Shown in pieces: positions 6,001 to 9,000 of a stretch of DNA of 64,000 nt. This DNA is from Escherichia coli (GTDB lineage Bacteria; Pseudomonadota; Gammaproteobacteria; Enterobacterales; Enterobacteriaceae). Every line of letters starts with the position of its first letter. Positions within the stretch are counted from its first letter, which is position 1. Location of the stretch: the NCBI RefSeq assembly GCF_016903815.1, contig NZ_CP069973.1; one strand, given 5' to 3'. A program made the position numbers.

Positions 6001-9000
6001 TCCGTACCGATTCGTTTTGCAGGCTCTTACCAGCGCGACGATACCGGCGAAACGGTGGCCGTCGAGGTGGTCATGCGTGGACGTCAGAAAGAAATCGACA
6101 CCGGCGAGGGCAAACAGGGAGAAGATACCGAGTCGAAAATCTCCGTGGTCTGCACCTATTTCCGGCTGACGATGGACGGTAAGGAGCTGGTCGAAATCGA
6201 CACCATCAACATGATTGAGAAGGTGAACGGCGTCGACCGGCTGGAGCAACACCGCCGCAATATCGGCCTGTGATTTTCATCCGGTCAGCCTGGCTGACCG
6301 GTTAACCCCGATTCAGAAGTGAGAAAACCATGAACAAAGAAAATGTGATTACCCTGGACAATCCGGTCAAGCGTGGTGAGCAGGTTATCGAACAGGTCAC
6401 GCTGATGAAACCCAATGCCGGGACGCTGCGCGGTGTCAGTCTGGCAGCGGTCGCGAACTCTGAAGTCGATGCACTGATTAAGGTGCTGCCGCGCATGACG
6501 GCACCGATGCTGACCGAGCAGGAAGTCGCCGCGCTGGAACTGCCTGACCTTGTGGCGCTGGCCGGTAAGGTGGTCGGTTTTTTGTCGCCGAACTCGGTGC
6601 AGTGACGTTTCCAAAAAATCTGTCGGTCGATGACCTGATGGCGGATGTGGCAGTGATATTTCACTGGCCGCCATCAGAACTGTATCCCATGAGCCTGACC
6701 GAACTCATCACATGGCGCGAAAAGGCGCTCCGGCGAAGCGGAAACACGAATGAGTAACAATGTAAAATTACAGGTATTGCTCAGGGCTGTTGACCAGGCA
6801 TCCCGCCCGTTTAAATCCATCCGCACAGCGAGCAAATCGCTGTCGGGGGATATCCGGGAAACACAAAAATCACTGCGCGAGCTGAACGGTCAGGCATCCC
6901 GTATTGAGGGATTCCGCAAGACCAGTGCACAGCTCGCCGTGACTGGTCATGCACTTGAAAAGGCTCGGCAGGAGGCCGAAGCCCTTGCCACACAGTTTAA
7001 AAATACCGAACGTCCGACCCGTGCTCAGGCGAAAGTGCTGGAATCCGCAAAGCGTGCGGCGGAGGACTTACAGGCGAAATATAACCGCCTGACAGATTCC
7101 ATTAAACGCCAGCAGCGGGAACTGGCCGCTGTGGGAATTAATACCCGCAATCTTGCACATGATGAGCAGGGACTGAAAAACCGTATCAGTGAAACCACCG
7201 CACAGCTTAACCGTCAGCGTGACGCGCTGGCGCGTGTCAGTGCACAACAGGCAAAACTTAACGCAGTAAAACAGCGTTATCAGGCCGGAAAGGAACTGGC
7301 CGGAAATATGGCCTCGGTGGGCGCTGCCGGTGTGGGGATTGCTGCTGCGGGAACGATGGCCGGAGTTAAGTTGCTGATGCCCGGTTATGAGTTTGCGCAG
7401 AAAAACTCAGAATTGCAGGCTGTGCTCGGTGTGGCAAAAGACTCCGCCGAAATGGCTGCACTACGCAAGCAGGCGCGCCAGCTCGGCAACAATACCGCAG
7501 CCTCGGCAGATGATGCAGCCGGTGCGCAGATTATTATTGCGAAAGCCGGTGGGGATGTTGATGCCATTCAGGCGGCAACGCCGGTCACGCTGAATATGGC
7601 GCTGGCGAACCGTCGCACGATGGAAGAAAACGCCGCCCTGCTGATGGGGATGAAATCCGCCTTTCAGCTTTCAAACGATAAGGTCGCTCATATCGGGGAT
7701 GTTCTCTCCATGACGATGAACAAAACCGCCGCCGATTTTGATGGCATGAGCGATGCGCTGACCTATGCCGCACCTGTGGCAAAAAATGCTGGTGTCAGCA
7801 TTGAAGAAACCGCCGCAATGGTCGGGGCGCTGCATGATGCAAAAATTACCGGTTCAATGGCGGGGACGGGAAGCCGTGCCGTGTTAAGCCGCCTGCAGGC
7901 ACCGACGGGAAAAGCATGGGATGCACTGAAAGAGCTTGGCGTGAAAACCTCAGACAGTAAAGGGAATACTCGACCAGTATTTACCATTCTGAAAGAAATG
8001 CAGGCCAGTTTTGAGAAAAACCGGCTCGGTACTGCCCAGCAGGCTGAATACATGAAAACTATTTTCGGGGAGGAGGCCAGCTCAGCCGCCGCCGTGCTGA
8101 TGACTGCCGCCTCAACTGGAAAGCTGGACAAACTGACCGCTGCGTTTAAAGCCTCAGACGGGAAGACCGCCGAGCTGGTAAATATCATGCAGGACAACCT
8201 CGGCGGTGACTTTAAGGAGTTTCAGTCCGCTTATGAGGCGGTGGGGACTGACCTGTTTGACCAGCAGGAAGGCGCACTGCGTAAGCTCACGCAGACGGCC
8301 ACAAAGTATGTGTTAAAACTCGACGGCTGGATACAGAAAAACAAATCACTGGCGTTAACCATCGGCATCATTGTCGGTGGTGCACTGGCACTGATTGGTG
8401 TCATCGGTGCCATTGGCCTCGTAGCCTGGCCGGTTATCACCGGCATCAATGCCATCATCGCGGCAGCAGGCGCAATGGGAGCAATCTTCACGACGGTTGG
8501 CAGTGCTGTTATGACGGCCATCGGGGCGATTAGCTGGCCGGTTGTGGCCGTGGTGGCCGCCATTGTCGCCGGGGCGTTACTTATCCGTAAATACTGGGAG
8601 CCTGTCAGCGCATTCTTTGGCGGTGTGGTTGAAGGGCTGAAAGCGGCATTTGCGCCGGTGGGGGAACTGTTCACGCCACTTAAGCCGGTGTTTGACTGGC
8701 TGGGCGAAAAGTTACAGGCCGCGTGGCAGTGGTTTAAAAACCTGATTGCCCCGGTCAAAGCCACCCGGGACACCCTGAACCGTTGCCGTGATACGGGCGT
8801 CATGTTCGGGCAGGCACTGGCTGACGCGTTGATGCTGCCGCTTAATGCGTTCAACAAACTGCGCAGCGGTATTGACTGGGTACTGGAAAAACTCGGTGTT
8901 ATCAACAAAGAGTCAGGCACGCTTGACCAGACCGCCGCCAGAACTCATGCCGCCACGTATGGCACCGGTGGTTATATTCCGGCGACCAGCTCTTATGCAG

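What the first reader, a model, noticed from the sequence alone, without database searches (positions are those of the whole stretch)
6573..6757. Programmed -1 frameshift site for the E/E' tail chaperone pair is conserved
A GGTTTTTTG slippery run sits ~20 nt before the E stop. The -1 frame from that point stays open for ~58 codons and stops at a TAA overlapping the T start codon. This matches the known P2 E/E' arrangement and supports a functional tail assembly module.
Basis: partly seen in the sequence, partly recalled or inferred. Interest (0 to 1): 0.35.

Follow-up and report, generated by a model that had tools for sequence, protein, structure and literature searches.

The report
Known P2 E/E' tail frameshift site
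This is the well-known programmed -1 ribosomal frameshift site that lets phage P2 make two tail-assembly chaperones (E and E+E') from one start codon, sitting intact in a P2-like prophage of Escherichia coli; it is real but ordinary.

Summary
GGTTTTTTG lies at 6576-6584. Its heptamer T_TTT_TTG (6578-6584) is in register with gene E (6330-6605), 18 nt before the E stop. The -1 frame is closed by a TAA at 6566-6568, then stays open for 57 codons to a TAA at 6755-6757, 8 nt into gene T (ATG 6750).

The region is 99% identical to phage P2, whose record annotates this -1 shift. The predicted 142-aa fusion differs from the P2 reference gpE+E' (UniProt O64312) by one residue and has the same ...GFL|VAELG... 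junction. It matches Pfam Phage_TAC_7 before the shift site and Phage_P2_GpE after it.

In 98 related loci (34-100% protein identity) E' is always in the -1 frame and an in-register slippery heptamer is always present: T_TTT_TTG in 93, with five variants. Third-position substitution bias switches frame at the heptamer. I found no conserved downstream RNA structure, as published for P2. None of 54 other in-register heptamers in the window's long ORFs has a comparable -1 extension.

The flanking F-operon genes are full length.

RefSeq-style annotation miscalls E' as a separate 51-aa GTG-start gene.

The parts
6330..6605 (+). Gene E (91 aa, 0-frame product; tail assembly chaperone), stop TGA at 6603-6605
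   Evidence: ORF list and translation. Pfam PF10109 Phage_TAC_7, E=2.6e-12, residues 7-85. Homologous to P2 gpE at 19430-19705.
6578..6584 (+). Slippery heptamer T_TTT_TTG, in register with E (P-site TTT 6579-6581, A-site TTG 6582-6584)
   Evidence: It is the only in-register X_XXY_YYZ heptamer in the 34-nt E/E' overlap. T_TTT_TTG is present in register in 93 of 98 related loci. The P2 record marks the shift site here.
6566..6568 (+). TAA in the -1 frame. It closes that frame upstream, so entry into E' can only occur between 6569 and 6602.
   Evidence: Translation of the -1 frame; overlap of 34 nt.
6584..6757 (+). E' extension: 57 codons in the -1 frame (6584-6754) plus stop TAA at 6755-6757. 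Fused to E residues 1-85 it gives the 142-aa E+E'.
   Evidence: Pfam PF06528 Phage_P2_GpE, E=1.2e-21, fusion residues 104-139. PHROG 1756 covers residues 82-142, across the junction. Substitutions fall mainly at third positions of the -1 frame.
6750..9197 (+). Gene T (tape measure protein, 815 aa). Its start ATGAGTAA overlaps the end of E' by 8 nt.
   Evidence: (PF10145).
5755..6273 (+). Gene FII (tail tube, 172 aa), the upstream neighbour that defines the tube - chaperone - tape measure synteny
   Evidence: PF04985, E=3.8e-60.

Best explanation
This is the phage P2 E/E+E' programmed -1 ribosomal frameshift cassette, in a P2-like (Peduovirus) prophage of E. coli.

Proposed mechanism:
1. Most ribosomes translating E (6330-6605) terminate at TGA 6603 and make the 91-aa gpE.
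2. A minority slip back one nucleotide on U_UUU_UUG (6578-6584). tRNA-Phe in the P site re-pairs from UUU to UUU, and tRNA-Leu in the A site re-pairs from UUG to UUU.
3. These ribosomes read on from GUC at 6584 in the -1 frame for 57 codons and terminate at UAA 6755-6757, just inside gene T. The product is the 142-aa gpE+E' (...VVGFL|VAELGAV...).
4. The two proteins share an N-terminal chaperone domain and are made at a fixed ratio set by the slip frequency.

By analogy with lambda gpG/gpGT, the shared domain is thought to coat the tape measure protein T, and the E' domain to recruit the tube protein FII. Neither protein ends up in the virion.

What is shown here: the anatomy, the homology, the frame-specific selection and the conservation of the heptamer. 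What is inferred from published work on P2 and lambda: that the fusion is actually made from this copy, the slip frequency, and the chaperone roles.
For: Anatomy:
- The heptamer is in register with E, and the shift into E' can only occur between 6569 and 6602.

Identity with P2:
- 99% nucleotide identity to P2, whose GenBank record annotates gpE+E' as a -1 frameshift product and an essential tail protein.
- The reference protein O64312 has the same junction GFL|VAELG.

Protein families:
- Pfam PF10109 matches before the junction and PF06528 after it. PHROG 1756 spans the junction.

Comparative evidence:
- tblastn of the fusion finds 418 phage records. In 401 of them one place covers at least 80% of the query; nearly all the listed places are two pieces, consistent with two reading frames.
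- In 18 divergent loci (34-80% identity, GC 40-67%) E' is always in the -1 frame. T_TTT_TTG is in register in 14. The others have T_TTT_TTT, T_TTT_TTC, A_AAT_TTT or G_GGA_AAG at the same place.
- In 80 IMG/VR loci, 78 have T_TTT_TTG and 2 have T_TTT_TTC.
- Codon usage predicts TTT-TTG for a Phe-Leu pair in only 0.2-16% of cases per locus, below 1% in six of the higher-GC loci (58-67% GC). This argues for selection on the nucleotides themselves.

Frame-specific selection:
- Third-position bias is in frame 0 upstream of the heptamer (for example 36 of 60 and 51 of 95 differences) and in frame -1 downstream (15 of 25, 34 of 61).

Background:
- None of 54 other in-register heptamers in the window has a comparable -1 extension.

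Literature:
- P2 shifts at TTTTTTG to give 91-aa E and 142-aa E+E', with no downstream hairpin (PMC3091744).
- P2-type efficiency is 2-3 fold that of lambda G-T, and the lambda chaperone mechanism is described (PMC5009743).
Against:
- U_UUU_UUG is not among the efficient -1 motifs in E. coli reporter assays: ZZN codons of mixed purine/pyrimidine content such as UUG shift less than UUY (PMC4066793).
- I found no conserved stimulator. The 80 nt downstream fold with z = 0.00, and a consensus fold of 16 sequences gave 0 pairs. How the reported efficiency is reached is therefore unexplained.
- The junction residue (Leu or Phe at position 85) could not be checked against primary data, because Christie et al. 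2002 is not in the library.
- RefSeq annotates E' as an independent GTG-start gene.
Confidence: 0.95

Rival explanations
1. E' is a separate small gene translated from its own start: GTG 6602 (51 aa, as RefSeq/PGAP annotates it) or ATG 6638 (39 aa, where the Pfam GpE model begins). The T-run would then be incidental.
For: - RefSeq annotates 6602-6757 as 'GpE family phage tail protein'. That exact 51-aa sequence is called on about 1000 contigs.
- Many phage records annotate a separate E' CDS starting near the conserved DDLM methionine.
Against: - The GTG at 6602 is not conserved. The 80%-identical Klebsiella phage has TTA there.
- The Met at fusion residue 104 is replaced by V, A, E, I or W in several lineages.
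- The strongest anti-SD matches in 6280-6760 lie at 6564-6568, at the upstream edge of the overlap and about 30 nt before GTG 6602; none lies within normal spacing of GTG 6602 or ATG 6638.
- In all 98 related loci the -1 frame stays open back to an in-register slippery heptamer. Independent initiation would not require this.
- The P2 record and the literature describe a fusion.
Confidence: 0.02
2. The fusion arises mainly from RNA polymerase slippage on the T6 run. Insertion of one U would give an mRNA with U7 that encodes ...GFF|VAELG... in frame. Ribosomal slippage would not be the main route.
For: - The site is a homopolymer run.
- A T7 version does encode an in-frame 142-aa fusion, and it exists in three public assemblies.
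Against: - At the homologous position some relatives carry heptamers that are not homopolymer runs: G_GGA_AAG in Mannheimia phage PHL101 and A_AAT_TTT in P88. A single-base-run stutter cannot act on these.
- From my own knowledge of the field, six T is shorter than the runs that usually give appreciable transcriptional slippage.
- The heptamer is conserved in register with the E frame in 98 of 98 loci. Register matters for ribosomal slippage but not for transcriptional slippage.
- The curated P2 protein has Leu, not Phe, at the junction.
Confidence: 0.03
3. The shift is ribosomal but by P-site slippage only. tRNA-Phe would slip from UUU to UUU while the A site waits for the rare UUG-reading tRNA-Leu. 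The junction would be ...GFF|V... rather than the textbook tandem slip giving ...GFL|V....
For: - UUG is a minor Leu codon in these loci, 1-21% of Leu codons.
- Re-pairing of tRNA-Leu from UUG to UUU is only near-cognate, and such mixed ZZN codons are poor tandem shifters in E. coli (PMC4066793).
Against: - The reference P2 protein is written with Leu at the junction, although I could not verify that this rests on peptide data.
- Relatives with G_GGA_AAG and A_AAT_TTT fit the tandem model.
Confidence: 0.1

Closest known systems
Bacteriophage P2 gpE / gpE+E' (Christie et al. 2002, J Bacteriol 184:6522; GenBank AF063097; UniProt O64312)
   Same: - 99% nucleotide identity across E-E'.
- The same T_TTT_TTG heptamer in the same register.
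- The same 91-aa and 142-aa products and the same junction.
- The same 8-nt overlap with T and the same FI-FII-E-E'-T-U-D-ogr order.
   Different: - One amino acid (N29 here, S29 in P2) and a few synonymous changes.
- The prophage carries different cargo next to the tail operon: a Shedu nuclease between G and FI.
Phage lambda gpG / gpGT tail assembly chaperones (Levin 1993; Xu, Hendrix & Duda 2004, 2013, 2014)
   Same: - Two overlapping ORFs between the major tail/tube gene and the tape measure gene.
- A -1 shift near the end of the first ORF produces a minor fusion protein at a fixed ratio.
- Mechanism as summarised in PMC5009743.
   Different: - Lambda uses G_GGA_AAG, and P2-type efficiency is reported as 2-3 fold higher.
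- P2 has a contractile tail.
E. coli dnaX and IS911/IS3 -1 frameshift signals
   Same: Tandem -1 slippage on an X_XXY_YYZ heptamer in a bacterial host.
   Different: - Those signals rely on a Shine-Dalgarno sequence 9-14 nt upstream and/or a 3' hairpin or pseudoknot.
- Here no conserved 3' structure was found.
- The only SD-like sequence ends 3 nt before the heptamer.

Membership tests
P2-type gpE / gpE+E' pair (Peduoviridae) | N-terminal (0-frame) part belongs to Phage_TAC_7 (PF10109) | tested here: met
   E=2.6e-12, 47 bits against a cutoff of 25, residues 7-85.
P2-type gpE / gpE+E' pair (Peduoviridae) | The -1 frame extension belongs to Phage_P2_GpE (PF06528) | tested here: met
   E=1.2e-21, 76 bits against a cutoff of 23, fusion residues 104-139. 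PHROG 1756 covers residues 82-142.
P2-type gpE / gpE+E' pair (Peduoviridae) | In-register T_TTT_TTG heptamer inside the E/E' overlap | tested here: met
   Heptamer at 6578-6584 with E codons TTT TTG. Identical to P2.
P2-type gpE / gpE+E' pair (Peduoviridae) | Products of 91 and 142 aa with the junction ...GFL|VAELG... | tested here: met
   The P2 reference AAD03292.1/O64312 is the same sequence apart from S29. Lengths as stated in PMC3091744.
P2-type gpE / gpE+E' pair (Peduoviridae) | Synteny: sheath FI - tube FII - E/E' - tape measure T - U - D - ogr | tested here: met
   Pfam assignments, the P2 annotation and the RefSeq annotation.
P2-type gpE / gpE+E' pair (Peduoviridae) | The fusion protein is actually synthesised, and both E and E+E' are needed for tail assembly | not testable with these tools
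   Needs proteomics and genetics. The P2 record labels both products essential tail proteins.
G/GT-type tail assembly chaperone frameshift (Xu, Hendrix & Duda 2004) | Two overlapping ORFs located between the major tail/tube gene and the tape measure gene | tested here: met
   FII 5755-6273, E 6330-6605, E' to 6757, T from 6750.
G/GT-type tail assembly chaperone frameshift (Xu, Hendrix & Duda 2004) | The second ORF has no conserved start of its own and is reached through a slippery sequence conserved in the overlap | tested here: met
   In 98 of 98 related loci the -1 frame is open back to an in-register heptamer. GTG 6602 and Met104 are not conserved.
G/GT-type tail assembly chaperone frameshift (Xu, Hendrix & Duda 2004) | Structural relationship to solved tail assembly chaperones | tested here: inconclusive
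   [not shown]
Stimulator-dependent bacterial -1 PRF signals (dnaX / IS3 / IS911 type) | A 3' hairpin or pseudoknot about 5-9 nt downstream of the heptamer | tested here: not met
   80 nt downstream: -20.8 kcal/mol, z = 0.00. Consensus fold of 16 sequences: 0 pairs. P2 clade: -4.6 kcal/mol with one compensatory pair. No Rfam hit.
Stimulator-dependent bacterial -1 PRF signals (dnaX / IS3 / IS911 type) | An internal Shine-Dalgarno sequence 9-14 nt upstream of the heptamer | tested here: not met
   The SD-like UAAGGUGGU (6566-6574, -8.4 kcal/mol) ends 3 nt before the heptamer. The required spacing is taken from PMC5009743. A synonymous-recoding control shows it is mostly a by-product of the peptide.

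The most novel reading that the evidence does not exclude
The P2-type heptamer U_UUU_UUG is a weak -1 motif in E. coli reporter assays. Yet it is almost invariant across Peduoviridae and is reported to shift 2-3 fold more often than the lambda site, with no known stimulator. My evidence does not exclude an unrecognised context effect. Candidates are the SD-like UAAGGUGGU 3 nt upstream, the P2-clade hairpin at 6557-6578, the nascent peptide, or P-site slippage during slow decoding of the rare UUG codon (which would give a Phe rather than Leu junction). This would be a point about P2 biology in general, not about this window.
Probability: 0.12. Interest if true: 0.35.

Novelty: already known. 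Interest (0 to 1): 0.08.

Why it matters
Scientifically it adds little: this is a textbook recoding site in a common prophage.

It has practical value in two ways.
- It is a positive control showing that a sequence-only reader can spot a genuine programmed frameshift.
- It documents that standard annotation misses the frameshift. RefSeq/PGAP and many phage records call E' as a separate 51-aa 'GpE family phage tail protein', so the true 142-aa product is absent from most protein sets.

An intact site is also one small piece of evidence that the tail module of this prophage is functional.

Tried and rejected
- Downstream stimulatory RNA structure. Single-sequence folds, consensus folds of 16 divergent and of 4 close sequences and an Rfam scan of the whole window showed nothing significant or conserved. 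Rejected.
- Upstream SD-like stimulator. UAAGGUGGU is the strongest anti-SD match in the E/E' region. However, its spacing is 3 nt, against 9-14 nt for known -1 stimulators. Synonymous recoding reproduces it in 7% of trials in the window (median 26% over 19 sequences; combined p = 0.035 treating related loci as independent, which they are not). Not accepted as a selected element.
- Upstream hairpin plus U-run flagged as terminator-like. Its energy is -10.5 kcal/mol with z = -1.67, and it is absent in four of the six relatives folded. Treated as incidental.
- The primary paper, Christie et al. 2002, could not be read. I relied on secondary citations.
- The search for related loci with the 19-sequence alignment failed because no stretch was conserved enough. 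It was repeated with a 6-sequence alignment.

Full report
**Observation**

Window 6100-7000 was read directly and ORFs were listed.
- Gene E runs from ATG 6330 to TGA 6603-6605 and encodes 91 aa ending ...VVGFLSPNSVQ.
- The string GGTTTTTTG occupies 6576-6584. E-frame codons are GGT TTT TTG, so T_TTT_TTG (6578-6584) is a canonical X_XXY_YYZ heptamer in register with E.
- 18 nt lie between the heptamer and the E stop.
- The -1 frame carries a TAA at 6566-6568 and is then open from 6569. Entry into it from E is therefore possible only within 34 nt, and the heptamer is the only slippery site there.
- After a -1 slip the ribosome reads GTC at 6584 and 57 codons in all, ending at TAA 6755-6757.
- Gene T starts at ATG 6750, so the sequence ATGAGTAA gives an 8-nt overlap. 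The TAA lies just after the T start codon rather than on it.

**Is it more than chance?**

The bare heptamer is common: 26 copies in the window against 20.9 expected. The arrangement is not. In 47 long ORFs of the window there are 54 in-register X_XXY_YYZ heptamers. The longest -1 reading frame after any of them is 41 codons, and none extends beyond the stop of its own gene.

**What it is**

- The surrounding genes are sheath FI (4552-5742), tube FII (5755-6273), tape measure T (6750-9197), U (9212-9691), D (9691-10854) and ogr (10937-11155), by Pfam.
- The predicted 142-aa fusion matches Phage_TAC_7 in residues 7-85 and Phage_P2_GpE in residues 104-139. PHROG 1756 spans the junction.
- The FII-E-E'-T segment is 98-99% identical to many Peduovirus genomes.
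- Against the reference P2 genome AF063097 the E-E' region is 99% identical. Only two differences lie after the heptamer, and both are synonymous in the -1 frame.
- The P2 record annotates gpE, gpE+E' ('shares amino terminus with gpE; -1 frameshift; essential tail protein') and the shift site at the homologous base.
- An exact-sequence look-up shows that the P2 reference protein (AAD03292.1, NP_046780.1, UniProt O64312) is the S29 version of the fusion I predicted, with the same ...GFL|VAELG... junction.
- The window comes from an E. coli chromosome. A closely related P2-like prophage (93 differences in the first 14,000 nt) lies between pflA and pflB in strain 7/2 and has a full P2-type gene set. 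Homology to P2 ends at about 11244, at the attachment site.

**Comparative evidence**

- tblastn of the fusion finds 418 phage records. In 401 of them one place covers at least 80% of the query; nearly all the listed places are two pieces, as expected for two reading frames.
- I fetched 18 divergent loci from enterobacteria, Burkholderia, Ralstonia, Pseudomonas, Stenotrophomonas, Halomonas, Aeromonas, Vibrio, Acidovorax, Mannheimia and Arsenophonus (34-80% protein identity, GC 40-67%).
- In every one E' is in the -1 frame relative to E and an in-register slippery heptamer lies in the overlap. It is T_TTT_TTG in 14. The others have T_TTT_TTT (Smp131), T_TTT_TTC (Vibrio MAR), A_AAT_TTT (P88) and G_GGA_AAG (Mannheimia PHL101, the lambda heptamer).
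- Eighty further IMG/VR loci (71-100% identity, 77 distinct sequences) give 78 T_TTT_TTG and 2 T_TTT_TTC, all in the -1 arrangement. GTTTTTT is one of the longest invariant runs in the region.
- From local codon usage, a Phe-Leu pair would be written TTT-TTG in only 0.2-16% of cases per locus, below 1% in six of the higher-GC (58-67% GC) loci. The nucleotides themselves are therefore under selection.
- Third-position substitution bias lies in frame 0 upstream of the heptamer and in frame -1 downstream of it.

**Mechanism**

The best explanation is the published one: tandem -1 slippage of tRNA-Phe and tRNA-Leu on U_UUU_UUG. This yields a minority of gpE+E' alongside gpE. The two act as tail assembly chaperones for the tape measure and tube proteins, by analogy with lambda gpG/gpGT.
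- P2 shift site and product sizes: PMC3091744.
- Lambda mechanism, and the statement that P2-type efficiency is 2-3 fold higher: PMC5009743.

I looked for stimulators and found none that is conserved.
- The 80 nt downstream fold no better than shuffles (z = 0.00).
- A consensus fold of 16 divergent sequences gives no pairs, and the P2 clade gives only -4.6 kcal/mol.
- Rfam finds nothing in the whole window. This agrees with the literature.
- An SD-like UAAGGUGGU (6566-6574) is the strongest anti-SD match in the E/E' region. It ends 3 nt before the heptamer, whereas known -1 stimulators sit 9-14 nt upstream. Synonymous recoding shows it is largely dictated by the encoded K/E-V-V peptide.
- A hairpin at 6557-6578 followed by the U-run looks terminator-like (-10.5 kcal/mol, z = -1.67). 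It is not preserved in four of the six relatives folded.

One loose end belongs to P2 biology in general. U_UUU_UUG is not among the efficient motifs in E. coli reporter assays, where UUG-type A-site codons shift less than UUY (PMC4066793).

**Rivals**

- Independent initiation of E'. This is how RefSeq annotates it: GTG 6602, 51 aa, 'GpE family phage tail protein', a sequence seen on about 1000 contigs. It is contradicted by the lack of a conserved start codon and by the universal open -1 frame back to the heptamer.
- Transcriptional slippage. It is unlikely as the main route because some relatives use heptamers that are not single-base runs at the same place, and because register with the E frame is conserved.
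- P-site-only slippage. A junction of Phe-Phe-Val cannot be excluded from sequence, and one mass-spectrometry measurement would settle it.

**Structure**

**Verdict**

This is the known P2 E/E+E' frameshift cassette, intact, in a common E. coli prophage: already known and of low interest. The only practical point is that routine annotation misrepresents it.

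Noticed in passing
window 6602-6757: RefSeq/PGAP annotates E' as an independent 51-aa GTG-start CDS ('GpE family phage tail protein') rather than as a frameshift fusion with E. That 51-aa sequence is called on about 1000 contigs, while the window's exact 142-aa fusion is absent from the 15-billion-protein collection.
   Followed up: yes
window 3039-4265 (+): A Shedu anti-phage nuclease (SduA: PADLOC E=1.4e-219; Pfam SduA_C E=3e-33) lies between the tail fibre assembly gene G (2221-2748) and sheath gene FI. From my own knowledge, P2 carries Z/fun at this position. It looks like defence cargo in a P2 variable hotspot.
   Followed up: partly
window ~11225-11250 and 11475-13757: Homology to P2 ends at about 11244, inside the att core region downstream of ogr. 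The host gene pflB follows on the minus strand. In E. coli 7/2 the same prophage has its integrase next to pflA, so the prophage sits in the pflA-pflB intergenic region.
   Followed up: partly
window 6566-6574: The SD-like UAAGGUGGU (-8.4 kcal/mol with the 16S 3' end) is the strongest such match in 6280-6760. It ends 3 nt before the slippery heptamer. That spacing is known to favour +1 shifts rather than -1 shifts, and it is mostly explained by the encoded peptide.
   Followed up: yes
window 6557-6584: An 8-bp hairpin (GCUGGCCG/UGGUCGGU) directly followed by the U6 run scores as terminator-like (-10.5 kcal/mol, z = -1.67). It is not conserved in the Klebsiella, 186, Yersinia or Fels-2-like relatives.
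   Followed up: partly
window 10434-10440 (gene D): An in-register A_AAA_AAG, the most slippery E. coli heptamer, lies in the lysine-rich part of D, with the -1 frame open for 30 codons. P2 has CGC AAA AAG here, so it arose by a synonymous CGC>CGA change and is probably incidental.
   Followed up: partly
L103-L105, positions 843-861: Three public E. coli assemblies have T7 instead of T6 at the slip site. This gives an in-frame 142-aa '...GFFVAELG...' protein (RJK13013.1) and no separate E. Two of the contigs also have truncated FII or T calls, which suggests homopolymer sequencing errors rather than real variants. A second '...GFFVAELG...' entry (QTN08932.1, S29 background) was found in the look-up but its DNA was not examined.
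   Followed up: partly
L008 653-672, L011 653-672, L012 668-687, L015 647-666: Fels-2-like and Klebsiella relatives share a possible hairpin starting 7 nt after the heptamer (consensus -11.9 kcal/mol, mostly invariant pairs, one compensatory pair). The P2 clade lacks it.
   Followed up: partly
L020 682-688; L017 652-658; L009 637-643; L018 634-640: The heptamer varies in distant relatives at the homologous position: G_GGA_AAG (Mannheimia PHL101, identical to the lambda G/GT heptamer), A_AAT_TTT (P88), T_TTT_TTT (Smp131) and T_TTT_TTC (Vibrio MAR).
   Followed up: partly
L102 10226-12935 (same prophage in E. coli 7/2, upstream of the window): The other P2 variable region carries an HTH protein, a reverse transcriptase family protein and an FRG-domain protein. 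This is possibly a retron-like or other defence cargo.
   Followed up: no
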